Part shown: positions 44,131-50,949 of the stretch, piece by piece
How positions within the stretch are numbered: the first letter of the stretch is position 1
Layout: each line of letters opens with the position of its first letter
From: Acidobacteriota bacterium
Lineage (GTDB): Bacteria > Acidobacteriota > UBA6911 > RPQK01 > JAJDTT01
Assembly: GCA_965217775.1 (NCBI GenBank)
Contig: CBDCJH010000002.1
Location: forward strand, 3,168,001 to 3,232,000
Reading direction: 5' to 3'
DNA: 64,000 nt
The notes under the pieces: generated by a model
Database searches by the model: none
The model's input: only the letters and a program-made list of their open reading frames with translations
Told to the model about the DNA's origin: nothing
Program-made: the position numbers and the translations under genes

Positions 44131-45701
44131 CGTTGCGTCCCGCTACGTCGCGTGCCGGCGACTCTCAACACGGGCCTTTGAATAGCCTCACATTCCCCAT
44201 ACGGTCACCGTGGCCCCACCCGCCGTTTCGTCGCGGCGATAGATCTTGTCTTCCCATGACCTCCCCTCGGAGCGGTCGAAGATCACGAGGTGTCCCTCCG
44301 ATGCGGCGCAGCGTTCCATGTAGGCGCGCGTTTGCGCCAAGCCTTCGCGAAGCGTTGCATCGAGGCCCCGATGCAGCACTTTGCATTCGACGACCACCTT
44401 CTGCATCTGCCGGTCCGTTCCGGATTGCGCCTCGCTGGCGCGCCCTGCAACTGGTGACAGGATCAACAGATCCGTCCGCCTCCGGCCCAGGCCGTACTCG
44501 CGCTCGATCCGCCCGCCGCTGTTGACGATGCGCTGCAGGAACGCTTGCAACAAAAGTTGTGGGCCAGCCTCCTTGTACTGGAAGCGCTCCACCCAGTGCT
44601 CCGAGTGCTCCCGGAAGAACTCCTGGAACGCGGCCATCAGCTTGACGGACCGCAACGCCCCGTTCTCATCGACGTACCACGCCGGATCGTGATGGATCGA
44701 CATCTCCTGAGTGGTATAGGTGAGACCGCGCGGGATCACTTCGCGGTAGATGGGATTGGCGATGGCCACGGGGCCGGTTCGCGTCACCAGGCCCAGGTCG
44801 CGCACATACGCCAGATCGTCGGCTGGGATCGGGTCAACCGCGCCGGACCCCTTCAGCAGCGGCTCGACGACCCGGCGCACCCGCTCCTCCTGCAGCTTGT
44901 CGGTGAGCTGGTCCAGATGGGTCTCGCGACGCAGGATCAATTGCTCGCGCGCGTCCTGGATGGCGTCGCCGGTGATCTCCCGGCTACGGTCCCGGCCTTC
45001 CTTGTTGTCGAAACAGGTTTCGTAGGCCAGGGCGTTCACCAGCCAGGGCTGGCCCTGCGTCAACCTCCAGATCTCGTCCCGCCCCTCGTCCGTGAACACT
45101 TGGTCCGTCTCCCCGGTATGTTGTGCCAACAGGGACTCGACCTCGCGTGGCAAGAAATCTCCGAGCCGCAGGGATTCGGCCCGAATGTTGAATGCGCTGC
45201 CACCGGCGACGATGGCGTTTTCGGCCCTGGACCGAATTCGGTAGTCGCGCACGTCGCGAACGCCGCACAGAATCACGCTCTGGGGAAACCGCCGGGGGCG
45301 GTCCGGATAACCGGCCCGGAGCTGACGCAATACCGACAGCAGCGTGTCGCCCATCAGCGCATCGATCTCGTCGATCATGAGCACGAGCGGCTTGGCGTCG
45401 GCTTCGCTCCATCGGGCCAGCGTCTCCCCCAGCGCGTCGTTGGGGCCCGCTGTTGCTAGAATCCCCGGCCAAACTTCAGCCACGAACAGGTCGTCCAGCG
45501 CGTGGCGCGCCGCCCGCGCCAGGGCGCTGAGGATCGCTCGCACACCCTCACGGACATTTTCCCGGGCCGCCGGGCCGCCGGGCCGCCTTCGACGTTGACG
45601 TACACGCACCGGAACTCGCCGCCGAGGTTCAACTCGTCCCTCAGCGCCAGCAGTGCCGAAGTCTTGCCCGTCTGACGCGGCGCGCGCAGGACGAAGTATT
45701 T

Positions 45702-45801
45702 GGGGCTTATATACCTAAGTGCCATTGGCATACAGTTCTGGCACCACGCTTTCCCCAACGAGATACGTTCCGGTACCCAGGGCAAGAACCCCAGCCCTGA
45801 G
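45702..45801 (-). ncRNA. Predicted TnpB omegaRNA scaffold overlapping the tnpB 3' end and right TIR
   Basis: By-eye stems: CTCAGGGC/GCCCTGGG; GGTACC..ACG/CGT..GGTGCC; TGTATGCC/GGTATATA; loop GGGGTT complementary to terminal AGCCCC. Confidence 0.6.
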
Positions 45802-46890
45802 AATGTTCAGGGCGGCATTGTGGTCCCTGTCCATTCTAAGTCCGCAGGCCCTGCACCGGAAGGTTTCGCTCCGCCCTGGATCGTGGCGGGCGCCGCACCG
45901 GTGGCAGTCCTGCGATGTAAATGCGGGATTCACGTCTACGAACTTCCGACCGGCCCATTCTGCCTTGTACTGGATTTGATTCCGCAGAAGCCCCCAGGAT
46001 TGCGTCAGTATTTCTCGATTCAGCCCCTTCTTCTTCGAGCCCTTCGTTACCATCCCTTGGATGTTCAGCTTCTCCACAGCGATCAGACCGTGCTCACGAA
46101 TGATGCTGCTGGAGAGACGATGGCAGGCATTACGGTTTCGGACCGATTCCCGGTGACGGAGCCGAGATAGCTGTACGATCCGCTTCCGTCTGGTCTTGGA
46201 AATCTTCTTGCACCTGGAGACCTTTCTCTGCTGCTTTCGGATCCCCGCCCAGTCCCGTCTATTCCGTTCGATCCTCTCACCCGTGGACAGCACCGCTCGC
46301 TGGCGGACTCCCAGGTCGATCCCCACCGAAGACTCGCATTTCGGCAGCGGCAGCTTCTCCACCTCGTACGTCAGGTCCACGGACACCCGGTTCGGCTTGC
46401 GGACGATCCGCAACGCCTTCAACGGGCATCCGTTCGGCAACGGCCGGGACGGAAAGATCCGGATCGTCGGAAAGCCCTTGGGCCGGATGGCGTAGCCCCG
46501 AGCCCGCTTCTTCACCAGGGTCGCCTTGGGGTCGACGACGTCCATGGTCTCCATCCTCGCCAGGGGCCGGAACCGAGGATACCCCGGCTTCTCCCCCGCC
46601 TTGCATCGACGGAAGAACGCCTGGAAGGCCCGATCCAATCGAACCAGCATCCCACGCTCCGCCTTGACCGCCACTGACCCGAGCCCCTCCGGATCTTCCT
46701 TCCTCATGGAGGTCAACCCCTTCATCTGATCGTACAGGGTCACACCGCGCTGCTCGGACTCCCATGCCATCCTCCGTTCCTCCAGTGCCGCGTTGTACAG
46801 CCGATTCAGGATGGACCTCACCCAGTCCAACCGCCGGATTCCACCCTTGGACAGCTTGGCTCTGCACTGGATAGTTGCGTGGCCTTTCAT
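45715..46890 (-). CDS. tnpB: RNA-guided endonuclease TnpB
   Basis: LYNAALEER, RLDRAFQAFFRR..GEKPGYPRF, RuvC-I VGIDLG, RuvC-II IAVEKL, YKAEWAG, TSQDCHRCG..CRACG zinc finger, RuvC-III DRDHNAALNI. Confidence 0.96.
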   Translation of the reverse strand: MKGHATIQCRAKLSKGGIRRLDWVRSILNRLYNAALEERRMAWESEQRGVTLYDQMKGLTSMRKEDPEGLGSVAVKAERGMLVRLDRAFQAFFRRCKAGEKPGYPRFRPLARMETMDVVDPKATLVKKRARGYAIRPKGFPTIRIFPSRPLPNGCPLKALRIVRKPNRVSVDLTYEVEKLPLPKCESSVGIDLGVRQRAVLSTGERIERNRRDWAGIRKQQRKVSRCKKISKTRRKRIVQLSRLRHRESVRNRNACHRLSSSIIREHGLIAVEKLNIQGMVTKGSKKKGLNREILTQSWGLLRNQIQYKAEWAGRKFVDVNPAFTSQDCHRCGARHDPGRSETFRCRACGLRMDRDHNAALNILRAGVLALGTGTYLVGESVVPELYANGT

Positions 46891-47199
46891 GGTAGGACTT
46901 GTAAACCATCAGCCTGAATTCTCGGCACTTAGGCATATAATCCCCAAGTATTTCCACTGCCGGATGAGCATCAGGAAATCGTCGACGTCGAGCCGCTCCA
47001 GGGGCGGGATACTGTAGTGCATTTCCGGGTTCACCGGGCCGGCGGTGTTGAAGAAACGCATAGTTTGAGTATCGCACGTTGTCTCGGGTCACGCAGTGCA
47101 CCGAGAGGAGGGGCGTCCTCGGAACAAGACGCGGCATCGCCTCAAGACGCTGTAGACAGCAGGGTCGGAAGAACTGAGACGTGAACCGGTACGAGCAGT

Positions 47200-49047
47200 T
47201 CAGCCCGACGGGAGTGCGTACCCCAGGGCATGGGCGGCTCGCCGAAAGGCGGTTTCGGATCTTGCGGGAACGACGAGCCCGCGCGGACCGGCGCGCACGC
47301 AGTACCTGGCCGCCCGCCGGTCGGCGGCAATCCGTTCGGCGATCTCCTTGTCCGCGCACTCGATCATCAGGGCCGGGCCCTTCCGCTTCAGGGCGCGCCC
47401 GCCGAGCTCGACGCTTCGGATGAAGCCTTCGACCTTCTGCGGCAGCGGCTGATCGTCACGCGCGTCAAGAAATTCCCTCAACTGCGCCACGTCCTGACCG
47501 CTCTCGACGGCCGTGAGAGCGCGCGTGAGATCCAGTCGCCAGACCCCGTCGGACTCGACCCGGGCATAGGTCTCCAGCACCACGAGTTCCTCGGGCGGCA
47601 GCGGTGCCGCCGATTCGACCCGCAGGTCGGTATACAGAGTCAGAGCGGTTCGAATCGGCGGACTGCCCGGCTCGTATTCGTCCGTCTGGCCGACACAATA
47701 GGCGCCCAAGGGATTGAGCCGGAAATACTCCAGACCGTCGTAACGGCTCAGGAATTCCAGATCGTCCGCACCCCACATGTGCCGGAAGTCCCGCCGTGCC
47801 CCGTGCGGGTCGGTGAACGCGACGTCCACCAAACCCAGGGTGGCCACGTACTCGAGCAACAAGCACAGGACATAGCGTCCCTGGAGCAGACTCCACTCGT
47901 GATTGCCGGCAAAGCCGAAGCTGCCGTGCCGCATCTCAACGAGGTAGAGGCGCCACGGATCCCGCGTGACACTGACGTCCAGTTCCGCCGCCTCCATGAA
48001 GCGGAAGAATTCGTCCACCTGCACCCACCCCCCCACGGGACACTCGGCGAGCGCCTCGTCGATCATGGGCCGGCGATTCCGCACGGCCGTCATCGTCCGT
48101 TTGCCCCGCCCCCGGTGCTGGCCCTTGATGTCCTCCATGCGGCTGAACTCATCCAACAACGTGCTCTTCAGCCACCACTGCCAGATCCGCCGCAGCGTCT
48201 CAGCGGGCGGGGTCGTGAAGGCCGCGCGCCCGGCCTTGGTCAACACCAGCTTGGAGCCGCGCCGTTGGACCAGCTTGCCGGCCTGCACCAGCCAGGGCCA
48301 AGCGAATGCCCGGATGGAGCCGATCGTCTGTTCCCAGCGCTTCCTCTTCTCGTTCGGGTCGAAGAAATCGCCGCCGTGCAGCACCTCCGCGATGCGGCGC
48401 ACGGAAACCGCCGACGCGCGCCGGGTCTTCACGCTGACGGAGATCTTGCCTTGATCGACCAGACGCAGCACTGCGAACAGGTCGTAAGCCGCAGGCTGCT
48501 CCATGTCGCGCCGAGTCAGGCGTACTCTGTCGAATTGCGGTTTCTGACCCTTGGGAACGAAGGCGATCCGGCGCCGATCGACGAATTCCGGAACTTCATC
48601 CACGGCAGAGACGGTCGGTTCCTCCGGCTCGGGCACGAACTCCAGGAGCTGATTTTCGAGGTCTCTGGGGATGGTCGTCGGTGCAAAATACCGGTAGCCG
48701 TCCGCAGGGTAGAGAAACAGGTGCAACAGGGTAGGCTCAATGGTATCGCCTTTGTCGATGCGCTTCGGCAACACTCCGTACTTGGCGCGAAACCGTTTGG
48801 CCTCGAATCGGCCCTCCAGGCCATAGAGCGCTTCCTTCACCGCCAACTGCTGAGTCTTGTCAAGCCGCTCCCACAGTTCTCGCAACGGCCTGCCAGTCAG
48901 ACGGAGCGAGATGGCCTCCACCATGTCCGCCTTCAGTCTCGGCCGCGGCTTGGGGATGGACAGCAGATTCATCATCGGTTTGAGGGTCGGAACCGACAGG
49001 GCCGACAGGGCCTTCTTCAGGGTGGCGGACGGTAGTTTGATTCTCAT
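47200..49047 (-). CDS. Helicase-associated domain protein (XPB/Ssl2-N, Helicase_C_3-like C-terminus), paralog 1
   Basis: AFAWPWLVQAG, LLEYVATLGLVDVA, FLSRYDGLEYFRLNPLG, VWRLD..PLPQKV; no ATPase motifs seen. Confidence 0.65.
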   Translation of the reverse strand: MRIKLPSATLKKALSALSVPTLKPMMNLLSIPKPRPRLKADMVEAISLRLTGRPLRELWERLDKTQQLAVKEALYGLEGRFEAKRFRAKYGVLPKRIDKGDTIEPTLLHLFLYPADGYRYFAPTTIPRDLENQLLEFVPEPEEPTVSAVDEVPEFVDRRRIAFVPKGQKPQFDRVRLTRRDMEQPAAYDLFAVLRLVDQGKISVSVKTRRASAVSVRRIAEVLHGGDFFDPNEKRKRWEQTIGSIRAFAWPWLVQAGKLVQRRGSKLVLTKAGRAAFTTPPAETLRRIWQWWLKSTLLDEFSRMEDIKGQHRGRGKRTMTAVRNRRPMIDEALAECPVGGWVQVDEFFRFMEAAELDVSVTRDPWRLYLVEMRHGSFGFAGNHEWSLLQGRYVLCLLLEYVATLGLVDVAFTDPHGARRDFRHMWGADDLEFLSRYDGLEYFRLNPLGAYCVGQTDEYEPGSPPIRTALTLYTDLRVESAAPLPPEELVVLETYARVESDGVWRLDLTRALTAVESGQDVAQLREFLDARDDQPLPQKVEGFIRSVELGGRALKRKGPALMIECADKEIAERIAADRRAARYCVRAGPRGLVVPARSETAFRRAAHALGYALPSG

Positions 49048-49113: not shown

Positions 49114-50949
49114 TCAACGCAAGGACAAAGCGTACCCCAAGGCGCGGGCCACTCGCCGAAACGCCGCTTCGGATCCTGCATGAACGACGAGGTGGCGGAG
49201 GCCGGCGCGCAGGCAGAGCTTGGCCGCCCGCCGGTCGGCAACGATCCGGTCGGCGACTTTCCGGTCCCGGCATTCAATCAACCAGGCCCTGCCCTTGGGC
49301 GTCAGAGCGCTCGCACCGCGCTCGACGCTGCGGAGGAATCCTTCGACCCTTTCCGGCAACGGCTGATCGTCGCGCACGGCGAGAAATCGCCTCAGTCTCG
49401 CCACGTCCTGACCGCTCTCGGCGGCCGTAAGTGCGCGTAAGAGATCCAGGCGCCAGACACCGTCGGACTCAGCCTGGGCATAGGCCTCCAGCATCAGACG
49501 TTCTTGAGGCGTCAGCGGCGCCGCCGAATGAACGCGAAGATCGGTCTGGAGAGTCAGGGCGGTGCGAATCGTAGGCGTGGTCGGCTCGTAGGCCTTGGTC
49601 TGGCCGAGGCAGTAGGCGCCGAGCGGATTGAGTCGAACATACTCCAGGCCGTCGTAGCGGCTCAAGAAATCAAGCTCATCGGCGCCCCACAGGTGCGTGT
49701 AGTCCAACCGCGCGCCCCGCGGGTCGGTGAAAGCGACGTCCACCATCCCCAGCGTGGCCGCGTACTCGAACAACAGACACCGGGCATAGCGACCCTCGAC
49801 GAAGTTCCAGAGCAGACCTGCGGCATGGCCGAGGCTCCCGTACTCCGGGTCGACGAGGTAGAGACTCCGAGGATCCCGGGTGACGCCGAAACCAAGACCC
49901 GTCGCGTGCATGAAGCGAAAGAGACCGTCCACCTGGACCCAGCCGCCCACGGGGCATTTCGCGAGCGCCTCGGCGATCACGGGTCGGCGCTTTCGCGGCG
50001 ACGTCATCAGCCGCCTGCCCCGTCCTCGAAACTGGCCCTTGATGCCGTCCACGCGGCTGAACTCGTCCAACAAGGTGCTCTTCAACCATCGCTCCCAGAG
50101 GCGTCGCAACGTCTTTTCGGGCGGAGCTGCGAATGTCGCGCGTCCGGCCTTGGTCAAAGTCAGCTTGGAGCCCCGCAATTCGGCGAGTTGGGCGGCTTGC
50201 ACCATCCAGGGCCAAGCGAATGCCCGGACGGGGCCGATCATCTGACCCTGTCGTTTCTTCGCGGTCGGGTCGAAGAAGTCGCCGCCGTGCAGCACCTCCG
50301 CGATGCGTCGGACGGAAACCGCCGTAGGCCTCCGCGTTTTCACGCTGACGGCGATCTTGCCCCCGTCGATCAGATGCAGCACGGCGAACAGGTCGGGCAC
50401 CGCAACCGGCTCCATGCGGCGTCGGATCACGGGCACCCGATCGAACTCCGGTTTCTCGGAACCGTGGGTGCGGCGACGCCGATCTAGGAAGTCCGGAACC
50501 TCATCCAGAGAATCGATGGCCGGTTCCGGCGGCCGGGGGACGAACTTCACCAGTTGGGGCTTGAGTTCCTTGGGGATGACGATCGGAAGATCCCGGTAAC
50601 TGAACGGCGGATAGAGAAAAAAATGCAGCAGCGAAAATTCGCGGTCATAGTACTGATTGATGCCCTCCGGCAGCGCACCGTATACAGCGTAAAAATGTTG
50701 GAGATGGAATCGATGCTCCGGGCTGTAGAGCGTTTCCGACACCGCGAGCTGCTGGGTTTCATCCAGATACCGCCATATCGTTCGTAACACATCTTCAGTC
50801 AGTCGGAGTCGGACGGCCGCTATGATGGCCGGCTTTCGGGTCGGCCGCGGCTCGGGGATGGACAGCACCTCCATCATCGGCTGGAGGTTCGCGATCGTCA
50901 TGTTGCCCAGAGCCTTTTCCAGGGTGGCCGGCCTCGGGTCGACACTCAT
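49114..50949 (-). CDS. Helicase-associated domain protein, paralog 2 (tandem duplicate)
   Basis: Colinear with 47200..49047; upstream sequence TCAGGGTCTCCG..TCGATGG also duplicated. Confidence 0.65.
   Translation of the reverse strand: MSVDPRPATLEKALGNMTIANLQPMMEVLSIPEPRPTRKPAIIAAVRLRLTEDVLRTIWRYLDETQQLAVSETLYSPEHRFHLQHFYAVYGALPEGINQYYDREFSLLHFFLYPPFSYRDLPIVIPKELKPQLVKFVPRPPEPAIDSLDEVPDFLDRRRRTHGSEKPEFDRVPVIRRRMEPVAVPDLFAVLHLIDGGKIAVSVKTRRPTAVSVRRIAEVLHGGDFFDPTAKKRQGQMIGPVRAFAWPWMVQAAQLAELRGSKLTLTKAGRATFAAPPEKTLRRLWERWLKSTLLDEFSRVDGIKGQFRGRGRRLMTSPRKRRPVIAEALAKCPVGGWVQVDGLFRFMHATGLGFGVTRDPRSLYLVDPEYGSLGHAAGLLWNFVEGRYARCLLFEYAATLGMVDVAFTDPRGARLDYTHLWGADELDFLSRYDGLEYVRLNPLGAYCLGQTKAYEPTTPTIRTALTLQTDLRVHSAAPLTPQERLMLEAYAQAESDGVWRLDLLRALTAAESGQDVARLRRFLAVRDDQPLPERVEGFLRSVERGASALTPKGRAWLIECRDRKVADRIVADRRAAKLCLRAGLRHLVVHAGSEAAFRRVARALGYALSLR

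What the first reader, a model, noticed from the sequence alone, without database searches (positions are those of the whole stretch)
45694..46953. TnpB nuclease mobilised between IS1595-like terminal inverted repeats with an 8-bp TSD
Seen: a 1244-bp insert splits an ATPase gene at ..QWKY|FVLRAPRQTGKT, with perfect 8-bp direct repeats (AAGTATTT), 22-bp TIRs (20/22 identical; GGGG[A/C]TTATAT[G/A]CCTAAGTGCC) and one gene, a 391-aa TnpB with all three RuvC acidic residues and the zinc finger. There is no transposase. Established: TnpB normally travels with IS200/IS605 (Y1) or IS607 (serine recombinase) elements, which make no TSD and lack true TIRs. An 8-bp TSD with ggnnatTAT ends matches, as I recall it, the ISNwi group of the IS1595 DDE family, which also forms transposase-less passenger cassettes. 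Inference: a bacterial DDE-transposon lineage has captured an RNA-guided nuclease and is mobilised in trans, paralleling Fanzor capture by eukaryotic DDE elements. I cannot confirm whether this pairing has been reported.
Basis: partly seen in the sequence, partly recalled or inferred. Interest (0 to 1): 0.95.

Follow-up and report, generated by a model that had tools for sequence, protein, structure and literature searches.

The report
TnpB cassette moved by IS1595 transposase
A small mobile element that carries only an RNA-guided nuclease gene (tnpB) has the ends and 8-bp target duplication of a cut-and-paste IS1595 insertion sequence, has spread to about a dozen copies, and always sits in one orientation beside a G|A motif that looks like the nuclease's own recognition signal.

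Summary
Window 45702-46945 is a 1244-bp insert with 22-bp inverted ends (20/22) and a perfect 8-bp duplication, and it holds only a 391-aa TnpB. The genome has 12 full-length copies. It also has five copies of a 1762-bp IS encoding a true IS1595-family DDE transposase with near-identical ends and 8-bp duplications. A related genome and RNA-library contigs carry the empty site. Sister cassette subfamilies occur in 5 of 8 other genomes of the genus, and two occur in metagenome contigs at 42-44% identity. The last ~130 nt, including the inner part of the 3' inverted end, form a structured RNA with compensatory changes. A model of it also matches the 3' end of a Deinococcus tnpB 38.5% identical in protein.

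New here: in tnpB orientation, 22 of 22 cassettes with a clean duplication have G just upstream of it and A as its first base, against 6 of 21 autonomous IS1595 copies. I read this as a TAM-like signature.

The general idea is already published: Altae-Tran et al. 2023 report DDE-associated TnpBs with inverted ends and solo copies moved in trans. IS1595 was not named in any text I could read. Verdict: real, a new variant of a known kind, moderately high interest.

The parts
45694..45701 (.). Target-site duplication, copy next to the 3' end of tnpB (AAGTATTT on +; AAATACTT in tnpB orientation). Candidate start of the guide or last part of the scaffold.
   Evidence: A single copy is present in the empty site of G006.
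45702..45723 (.). Terminal inverted repeat at the tnpB 3' side. It holds the tnpB stop codon, and its inner part pairs with the conserved GUAU segment of the RNA.
   Evidence: Helix 4 is 98.8% paired, with 2 pairs showing changes on both sides.
45715..46890 (-). tnpB, 391 aa, intact RuvC D/E/D and zinc finger.
   Evidence: dN/dS is 0.31 over 36 pairs of 9 intact copies.
45702..45836 (-). Structured RNA region, a candidate omegaRNA scaffold. Hairpins lie at about 45801-45836 (weaker), 45778-45799, 45740-45777 (long hairpin) and 45709-45733 (terminal hairpin that includes the TIR).
   Evidence: RNAalifold and pair counts. Synonymous change drops about 5-fold in the overlapping codons. Model R1 matches the tnpB 3' end of a Deinococcus plasmid tnpB.
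46924..46945 (.). Terminal inverted repeat at the tnpB 5' side. In the other copies it is 21/22 identical to the ends of the 1762-bp autonomous IS1595 element.
46946..46953 (.). Target-site duplication, copy next to the 5' end of tnpB.
46954..46955 (-). GG on the minus strand, directly upstream of the duplication in tnpB orientation. This is the invariant G(-1) and frequent G(-2) of the TAM-like motif.
   Evidence: Position counts (G at -1 in 22/22, G at -2 in 14/22). Control.
44188..47061 (-). Host gene (AAA-type ATPase-like) interrupted by the element. It also carries an 8-bp duplication near 45562 that shifts the frame.
   Evidence: In one search, '8 left out at 45562' in all 4 runs.

Best explanation
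The insert is a non-autonomous member of the IS1595 insertion-sequence family (a mobile insertion cassette). Its only cargo is tnpB together with its guide-RNA scaffold.

Shown:
- It has IS1595-type inverted ends and makes an 8-bp duplication at AT-rich sites.
- It has inserted at least 22 separate times in this genus.
- The same genomes hold autonomous IS1595 elements with near-identical ends.
- TnpB is intact and under purifying selection.
- The last ~130 nt form a conserved structured RNA. The 3' inverted end is part of it, so one sequence would serve as both transposase binding site and RNA scaffold.

Inferred:
- The IS1595 DDE transposase moves the cassette in trans.
- Transcription runs through the 3' end into the flank, so the guide is the duplication (or its distal part) plus the downstream flank.
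- TnpB with this RNA cuts the unoccupied site, which has the form upstream ...GG | AWW..., and so favours keeping or re-copying the element by recombination, as shown for IS605 TnpB.
- The invariant G(-1)/A(+1) in tnpB orientation is the TAM, or part of it. It lies across the flank/duplication border, as the 5' duplication is part of the TAM in Fanzors. The element's own 3' junction reads ...CCCC|AWW, which lacks the G and would be spared.
For: - Copies and duplications. There are 12 full-length copies 95-96% identical to the window copy. Across own and genus genomes, 22 of 26 end pairs have a duplication of at least 7/8.
- Autonomous partner. 21 copies with 8-bp duplications in G000, G002 and G006; ends 21/22 identical to the cassette's 5' end.
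- Empty site.
- Lineage-wide architecture: five to six TIR subfamilies in G004-G008, and metagenome elements L116/L117 and L119/L120 at 44% and 42% protein identity with the same ends and 8-bp duplications.
- RNA: 29 pairs, 96.8% paired against 89.0% in shuffles, 10 pairs with changes on both sides, 0/500 shuffles as high, slid controls 36-46%. With the distant elements added: 27 pairs, 14 with changes on both sides, 92.7% against 82.4%, 0/500.
- In L116, L118 and L119 the ORF stops before the long hairpin, yet the hairpin and the CCAGAAC.GUAU motif persist.
- dS falls from 0.0615 to 0.0130 in the overlapping codons.
- R1 matches a Deinococcus tnpB 3' end at 33.2 bits.
- TAM-like motif: G(-1) 22/22, first duplication base A 21-22/22, second base A or T 22/22. 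Both G and A occur in 6/21 autonomous copies in transposase orientation and 4/21 in the opposite orientation; Fisher p = 3.6e-7.
- The two distant elements also have G at -1.
- No terminator-like site follows tnpB.
Against: - No experiment or raw read shows the RNA, its 3' end, nuclease activity or mobilisation.
- The runs laid were contigs, which cannot show strand, ends or transcription.
- Rfam has no matching family.
- A DDE cut-and-paste element already leaves a break on excision, so the benefit of a homing nuclease is less obvious. The review PMC13565253 makes this point (passages).
- Retention by selection alone seems weak for a 22/22 bias.
- One distant element (L116/L117) has T, not A, as the first duplication base.
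- All four 1255-bp cassettes of G005 carry an in-frame stop yet have clean duplications, so TnpB is not needed in cis for insertion.
- Part of the R1 score on other tnpB genes may come from the conserved coding sequence at the start of the model.
- The cassette copies differ by 3-5% while the autonomous copies differ by 1-2%, so current activity of the cassette is not shown.
Confidence: 0.8

Rival explanations
1. An ordinary IS200/IS605- or IS607-type tnpB element sits nested inside an unrelated inverted-repeat MITE. On this reading the TIRs and duplication have nothing to do with tnpB.
For: TnpB's nearest solved and plasmid relatives are IS200/IS605 types: ISDra2-type structures at E about 5e-32 and Deinococcus and Thermus plasmid copies at up to 38.5% identity, some next to tnpA.
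Against: There are only 33 bp between the 5' TIR and the ATG, and the stop codon lies inside the 3' TIR, so there is no room for IS605 ends. No copy of the TIR pair without tnpB or the transposase was found among the 35 pattern hits. The architecture is kept through five to six TIR subfamilies and in 42-44% relatives. The TIR covaries with the upstream RNA segment.
Confidence: 0.03
2. The cassette is a real IS1595 derivative, but tnpB is a passive passenger. The G|A bias comes from the target preference of whichever transposase moves the cassettes, not from TnpB.
For: IS1595 elements here carry other passengers, for example an Mrr-like ORF in the 1762-bp element. G005 cassettes with in-frame stops still show clean duplications. 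The transposase prefers AT-rich 8-mers, which in a 62% GC genome are often flanked by G or C.
Against: A symmetric TIR-binding transposase should not give an orientation-specific motif. Autonomous copies with near-identical ends show G|A in only 6/21 and 4/21 in the two orientations. The bias holds in subfamilies whose two end tips are identical and whose ends differ from one another, that is, probably different transposases. dN/dS of 0.31 and the conserved RNA argue for function.
Confidence: 0.15
3. The conserved 3' structure is a DNA or transposase-related signal, such as subterminal binding sites or an attenuator, rather than a guide-RNA scaffold.
For: It overlaps the TIR, which must bind the transposase. 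No direct RNA evidence exists.
Against: The autonomous IS1595 elements lack this region; similarity between cassette and IS stops after about 27 nt of TIR. The same hairpin architecture sits at the 3' end of TIR-less tnpB genes, including a Deinococcus tnpB 38.5% identical in protein. G-U pairs are tolerated on the tnpB sense strand.
Confidence: 0.05

Closest known systems
DDE-transposase-associated TnpB branches (DDE-1 to DDE-6) of Altae-Tran et al. 2023, PNAS, PMC10691335 (section 9 and passages read; figures and supplements not seen)
   Same: Prokaryotic TnpB inside elements with inverted terminal repeats. The tnpB 3' end lies close to the transposon end. Solo TnpBs have ends nearly identical to those of transposase-bearing elements, implying movement in trans.
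   Different: Only IS630 (DDE-6) is named in the main text, and the 2026 review PMC13565253 lists ISL2, IS630 and IS1031. IS1595 occurs 0 times in the PNAS main text. Here no copy co-encodes the transposase, the duplication is long (8 bp) and variable, and an orientation-specific flank motif is documented. The supplements, which I could not open, may hold an IS1595 case.
IS1595 family insertion sequences (ISXO2-like DDE transposase), including members with passenger genes
   Same: Inverted ends beginning GGGG.TTATA, an 8-bp duplication at AT-rich sites, and a partner element with Pfam DDE_Tnp_IS1595 and NCBIfam transpos_IS1595.
   Different: The cassette has no transposase. Its cargo is an RNA-guided nuclease whose RNA uses the inverted end. 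The ISNwi1 subgroup consensus is recalled and was not tested.
IS1341-type solo tnpB elements of IS200/IS605, for example ISDra2 TnpB and its omegaRNA
   Same: Protein family, catalytic residues, and an RNA hairpin architecture at the tnpB 3' end.
   Different: Those elements have no TIRs and no duplication, have hairpin ends, and insert 3' of a fixed 4-5-nt motif through a Y1 transposase (review passage). This element has TIRs and an 8-bp duplication.
Fanzor1 and Fanzor2* in eukaryotic cut-and-paste DDE transposons
   Same: A TnpB-family nuclease rides in TIR/TSD transposons, often as non-autonomous copies. The TIR and TSD are built into the guide-RNA scaffold, and the 5' TSD is part of the TAM (passages in PMC10711439, and PMC13565253).
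   Different: Bacterial host, compact TnpB-size protein, and an 8-bp duplication of which only the first three bases are constrained.

Membership tests
IS1595 family (as a non-autonomous derivative) | Terminal inverted repeats shared with an element that encodes an IS1595-type DDE transposase | tested here: met
   In the other copies the cassette's 5' end is 21/22 identical to both ends of the 1762-bp element. That element's ORF matches PF12762 (1.8e-38), PF12760 and NF033547 (4.7e-52).
IS1595 family (as a non-autonomous derivative) | 8-bp target-site duplication | tested here: met
   19 perfect and 3 with 7/8 among 26 cassette end pairs. 21 autonomous copies with at least 7/8. The empty site has a single copy.
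IS1595 family (as a non-autonomous derivative) | Actual mobilisation by the IS1595 transposase | not testable with these tools
   Inferred from shared ends and co-occurrence. G002 has the IS but no cassette. G005 has cassettes but only fragmentary transposase matches.
ISNwi1 group of IS1595 | End consensus GGnnatTAT and 8-bp duplication (ISfinder definition, recalled) | not testable with these tools
   The ends GGGGATTATAT fit the recalled consensus by eye. ISfinder is not on hand. Plasmid annotations say only 'IS1595 family transposase'. The search for ISNwi1 found nothing useful.
TnpB RNA-guided nuclease | Family profile match over the whole protein | tested here: met
   NF040570 guided_TnpB 2.8e-60, residues 9-365. 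Pfam OrfB_IS605 and Cas12f1-like_TNB.
TnpB RNA-guided nuclease | RuvC D-E-D triad and zinc finger | tested here: met
   D192, E273, D356 and C329/C332/C346/C349 are aligned and conserved.
TnpB RNA-guided nuclease | Structured RNA overlapping the 3' end of the gene and reaching the element end | tested here: met
   Covariation. The model matches the tnpB 3' ends of relatives. Its expression as RNA is not shown.
TnpB RNA-guided nuclease | TAM-dependent, guide-dependent DNA cleavage | not testable with these tools
   Only the G|AWW flank signature is available.
IS200/IS605 (IS1341-type) | No TIRs, no duplication, subterminal hairpin ends | tested here: not met
   The element has 22-bp TIRs and an 8-bp duplication, and there is no space for hairpin ends.
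DDE-associated TnpB (Altae-Tran 2023) | TnpB and DDE transposase encoded in one element | tested here: not met
   All TIR pairs in the genome are 1243-1406 bp (tnpB only) or 1531-1762 bp (transposase only). This fits the paper's 'solo TnpB with matching ends' class.

The most novel reading that the evidence does not exclude
TnpB with its RNA does more than guard the element after insertion. It reads its TAM (..GG|AWW) at the moment of integration and so sets where and in which orientation the IS1595 transposase inserts the cassette. It may do this by being tethered to the 3' inverted end that doubles as its RNA scaffold. That would be a minimal, nuclease-competent, CAST-like coupling between a TnpB and a simple DDE transposase. 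It would explain why 22 of 22 insertions obey the motif, while the same transposase's own element obeys it in about 1 of 4.
Probability: 0.12. Interest if true: 0.9.

Novelty: new variant of a known kind. Interest (0 to 1): 0.62.

Why it matters
TnpB's accepted role is to cut the scarless empty site left by IS605 or IS607 excision so that the element is copied back. That role does not transfer obviously to cut-and-paste DDE elements, which duplicate their target. The 2026 review (PMC13565253) calls prokaryotic OMEGA systems outside IS605/IS607 a gap.

This lineage is a compact natural case: 1.24 kb, many independent insertions, known empty sites and an identifiable partner transposase. It also shows a sequence signature linking the nuclease to the target site, which gives a predicted TAM that can be tested in a day.

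It shows how a single 22-bp end can serve both a transposase and a guide RNA. It is a bacterial counterpart of the Fanzor arrangement. If the bias arises at integration, it would bear on how RNA-guided transposition (CAST) could start.

Tried and rejected
- Rfam scan of 45500-47200: only a sub-threshold COG3860 match (16.8 bits against a gathering score of 42.5), so no known RNA family.
- Genome-contig scan with alignment A2: the patterns chosen were too specific and returned only the same genus, 12 loci.
- Phylum-wide search of 401 genomes: nothing outside the genus except one match at 35% identity.
- Plasmid collection with TnpB: 26 records, all below 60% identity (best listed 38.5%). Those listed are ordinary solo tnpB or tnpA-tnpB IS200/IS605 contexts, and I did not inspect their ends.
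- Plasmid collection with the transposase: annotations give only 'IS1595 family', so the subgroup is not resolved.
- Viral contigs, pattern for the 3' end: 119 stretches matched and 80 loci were listed. With model R1, 0 of the 80 gave a match at the pattern site; there was one weak hit elsewhere in L269. So these were chance matches.
- Promoter and terminator scan: no minus-strand promoter-like site upstream of tnpB and no terminator. This is not informative for this phylum.
- My first TIR finder, which needed exact 10-mers, missed the ends of the more distant IS1595 lineages. A motif scan recovered them.
- RNA-library contigs cover tnpB and continue 18-51 nt past the 3' end into the flanks of other copies. 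In X5 a 255-nt contig over the 3' region of a sister subfamily has depth 1897, against 9.6-26 for contigs over the gene body. Contigs cannot show transcription, strand or ends, so I treat this only as a hint.
- The dN/dS run that included copy C2:2021673 was invalid because of an indel. It was repeated without that copy.
On the tree, 8 of the 16 rows in the TIR-bearing group therefore have unknown ends.
They may name the DDE families of branches DDE-1 to DDE-5.
- Literature searches behind the 'not in print' statement: TnpB + IS1595 gave 9 papers, none from its title or abstract start on this pairing. I checked the one with most tnpB mentions.
Full report
**1. The observation**

- AAGTATTT flanks a 1244-bp insert at 45702-45946 minus one, that is 45702-46945.
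- The two 22-nt ends are inverted copies that agree at 20 of 22 positions.
- The single long ORF (45715-46890, minus strand, 391 aa) is a TnpB. It matches Pfam OrfB_IS605 and Cas12f1-like_TNB and NCBIfam guided_TnpB at 2.8e-60.
- Its closest solved structures are the ISDra2-type TnpBs 8bf8/8exa/8h1j, at E about 5e-32 over residues 31-376.
- The RuvC aspartate, glutamate and aspartate (D192, E273, D356) and the four zinc-finger cysteines are in place.
- The element is almost nothing but tnpB. Only 33 bp lie between one end and the ATG, and the stop codon lies inside the other end.

**2. It is a multi-copy mobile element with IS1595 ends**

The 22-nt end pattern (up to 3 mismatches) occurs 35 times in the 6.43-Mb genome. 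The same pattern read backwards occurs 0 times.

The hits pair up into two size classes.
- 1243-1406-bp elements carry tnpB. There are 12 full-length copies, 95-96% identical to the window copy.
- Five 1760-1762-bp elements and one 1531-bp relative carry a 332-334-aa ORF.

That ORF is a bona fide IS1595-family DDE transposase: PF12762 at 1.8e-38, the IS1595 zinc ribbon, and NF033547 at 4.7e-52. Its element has ends that are 21/22 identical to the tnpB-proximal end of most cassettes, and it also makes 8-bp duplications. The 1762-bp element additionally carries an Mrr-like passenger ORF.

I examined 29 tnpB loci, 14 in this genome and 15 in five other genomes of the genus.
- 26 gave an end pair.
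- 22 of those had a duplication identical at 7 or more of 8 positions; 19 were perfect.
- All 22 have different flanks.

**3. Empty site**

The orthologous ATPase-like gene of G006 (94% identical) has one AAGTATTT and no insert, exactly as predicted. Contigs of two RNA-library runs join 45693 to 46946. They skip 1252 = 1244 + 8 bases, and 8 letters fit on either side of the joint.

**4. Distribution and relatives**

With the window TnpB as query, matches at E <= 1e-30 were found in 5 of 8 other genomes of the genus. None were found in the 32 genomes of other genera of the family and order that were searched.

Among 401 genomes of the phylum, only the genus and one hit at 35% identity reached 1e-40. 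The record titles of the relatives read Acidobacteriota MAGs.

Within the genus there are five to six cassette subfamilies, at 72-95% protein identity. Each has its own inner TIR sequence but the same GGGG.TTATA tip and 8-bp duplication. The genus also holds several IS1595 transposase lineages, at 98, 66, 62, 59, 58 and 52% identity to the query, with the same tip. Some of their inner ends resemble particular cassette subfamilies. I judged this by eye and did not test it systematically.

In a library of 1.84 billion representatives, 723 proteins match at 1e-30. The nearest full-length ones are 40-51% identical.

Of 80 metagenome loci at 33-44% identity, a motif scan found IS1595-type ends in five.
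- L116/L117 (44%) are solo cassettes with inverted ends and 8-bp duplications.
- L119/L120 (42%) are the same kind of solo cassette.
- L118 (44%) shows the 3' end only.

Loci at 40% identity or below lacked such ends. L123 shows an IS605-like hairpin end.

On a 60-row tree, the TIR-flanked rows fall in one 16-row group (SH-aLRT 86) together with 8 rows of unknown context. L121, which has no such ends, and the ten TIR-less metagenome and phylum rows lie outside it. Support is moderate, and the tree was made with the quick method.

**5. A structured RNA that includes the inverted end**

I aligned the last 170 nt of 14 cassettes. RNAalifold predicts 29 pairs, and 10 of them have changes on both sides.
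- 96.8% of cells are paired, against 89.0% in shuffles.
- 0 of 500 shuffles reach any of the five measures.
- With partners slid by 1-3 columns, only 36-46% are paired.

Adding the three distant elements gives 27 pairs, 14 of them with double-sided changes. 92.7% are paired against 82.4% in shuffles, and 0 of 500 shuffles are as high.

The last helix pairs a conserved GUAU segment with the TATA part of the 3' inverted end. It is 98.8% paired, with 2 compensated pairs. The transposon end is therefore part of the RNA fold.

Three further observations point to RNA-level constraint.
- In L116, L118 and L119 the ORF ends before the long hairpin, yet the hairpin and the invariant CC.GAA..GU motif remain.
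- Among 9 intact copies in this genome, dS drops from 0.0615 in codons 1-340 to 0.0130 in codons 341-391. Overall dN/dS is 0.31 over 36 pairs.
- A covariance model of the region matches the 3' end of tnpB in almost all of the 80 metagenome loci. It also matches a Deinococcus wulumuqiensis plasmid tnpB, 38.5% identical in protein, at 33.2 bits and E 1.3e-8.

Part of these scores may come from the conserved coding sequence at the start of the model.

That the ISDra2 guide RNA comes from this part of the gene is established knowledge that I recall. I did not re-read it here.

**6. An orientation-specific target motif**

For the 22 cassettes with clean duplications I rebuilt the empty site in tnpB orientation.
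- The base before the duplication is G in 22/22.
- The base before that is G in 14/22.
- The first duplicated base is A in 21/22 (3' copy; 22/22 in the 5' copy).
- The second is A or T in 22/22, and the third in 21/22.
- The far side is not the mirror image. The last duplicated base is T in 7/22, and the next base is C in 10/22.

The 21 autonomous IS1595 copies with clean duplications come from four transposase lineages in G000, G002 and G006. They show G before and A first in 6/21 in transposase orientation and in 4/21 in the other orientation. Fisher's exact test gives p = 3.6e-7.

The bias holds in subfamilies whose two end tips are identical. Both distant metagenome elements have G at -1, and one of the two has A first.

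A symmetric transpososome should not produce this, so the motif travels with tnpB. In the occupied locus the G lies 1.25 kb from the RNA. It is next to the guide-matching sequence only in the empty site.

This is what a TAM would look like. Either ..GG lies 5' of a guide that starts with the duplication, or GGAWW is the TAM and the first duplicated bases belong to the scaffold. The second arrangement is reported for Fanzors, where the 5' duplication is part of the TAM and the 3' duplication is part of the scaffold (passages of PMC13565253, and PMC10711439). The element's own 3' junction reads CCCC|AWW and would lack the G.

How a 22/22 bias arises is unexplained. It could come from retention after random insertion or from a role of TnpB at insertion.

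**7. What is known**

Altae-Tran et al. 2023 (PMC10691335; section 9 read in full, passages) report several things.
- There are six TnpB branches associated with DDE transposases, all with inverted terminal repeats.
- The tnpB 3' end lies within 250 bp of the transposon end.

Only IS630 is named in the text, and IS1595 occurs 0 times. A 2026 review (PMC13565253; passages and reference list) lists ISL2, IS630 and IS1031. It calls such prokaryotic systems rare and uncharacterised.

Full-text searches for TnpB with IS1595 found 9 papers, none from its title or abstract start on this pairing; I checked the likeliest. Searches added nothing. I could not see the supplements, so an IS1595 case may be hidden in them.

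**8. Verdict**

It is not a categorically new principle.

It is a new variant of the DDE-associated TnpB class in four respects.
- It has an IS1595 partner.
- It consists of solo cassettes only.
- It makes a long, variable duplication.
- One inverted end is shared between transposase and RNA.

It also carries a target-site signature that gives a concrete, testable TAM prediction. The signature raises the question of whether TnpB influences where a DDE transposon lands.

Noticed in passing
window 45555-45585: The interrupted ATPase-like gene also has an 8-bp tandem duplication in a CCGGGCCG-rich run that shifts the frame. All four runs laid and the G006 orthologue lack these 8 bases (table 4, 794 against 802 bases). 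The gene is therefore doubly broken in this genome, or the assembly has an error here.
   Followed up: partly
G000:C2:445385-447146 (L022/L023) and four more copies: The autonomous 1762-bp IS1595 element carries about 700 bp of passenger DNA. It includes a 110-aa ORF with Mrr_cat / NA-iREase1 (restriction-endonuclease-like) matches.
   Followed up: partly
G005 loci L039, L043, L046, L049: All four 1255-bp cassettes of this genome have one in-frame TAG in tnpB, yet have clean 7-8/8 duplications at different sites. G005 has only fragmentary IS1595 transposase matches. Either a dead tnpB subfamily was still mobilised, or the stop is read through. I did not look further.
   Followed up: no
G000:C2:4647309-4648714 and C2:2358592-2359856: Two cassette copies are longer, at 1406 and 1265 bp. 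They have insertions or rearrangements inside tnpB that break the ORF. The 162-bp extra piece was not identified.
   Followed up: no
G000:C2:1186780-1188023: This full-length cassette has flanking 8-mers that do not match each other. Each side still obeys the rule: G then A upstream, and A after the 3' end. This fits recombination between two copies.
   Followed up: no
window 47200-49047 and 49114-50949 (minus strand): Two tandem paralogous genes of 615 and 611 aa lie next to the ATPase gene. They have only a weak Helicase_C_3 match. Together with the ATPase-like gene this may be a defence-type or mobile-element neighbourhood. I did not pursue it.
   Followed up: no
G002:C1:4123212-4125984 (L071, L090): Two 1762-bp IS1595 copies sit back to back, and the flank of one reads into the end of the other. 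G002 has 14 transposase matches and no tnpB cassette.
   Followed up: no
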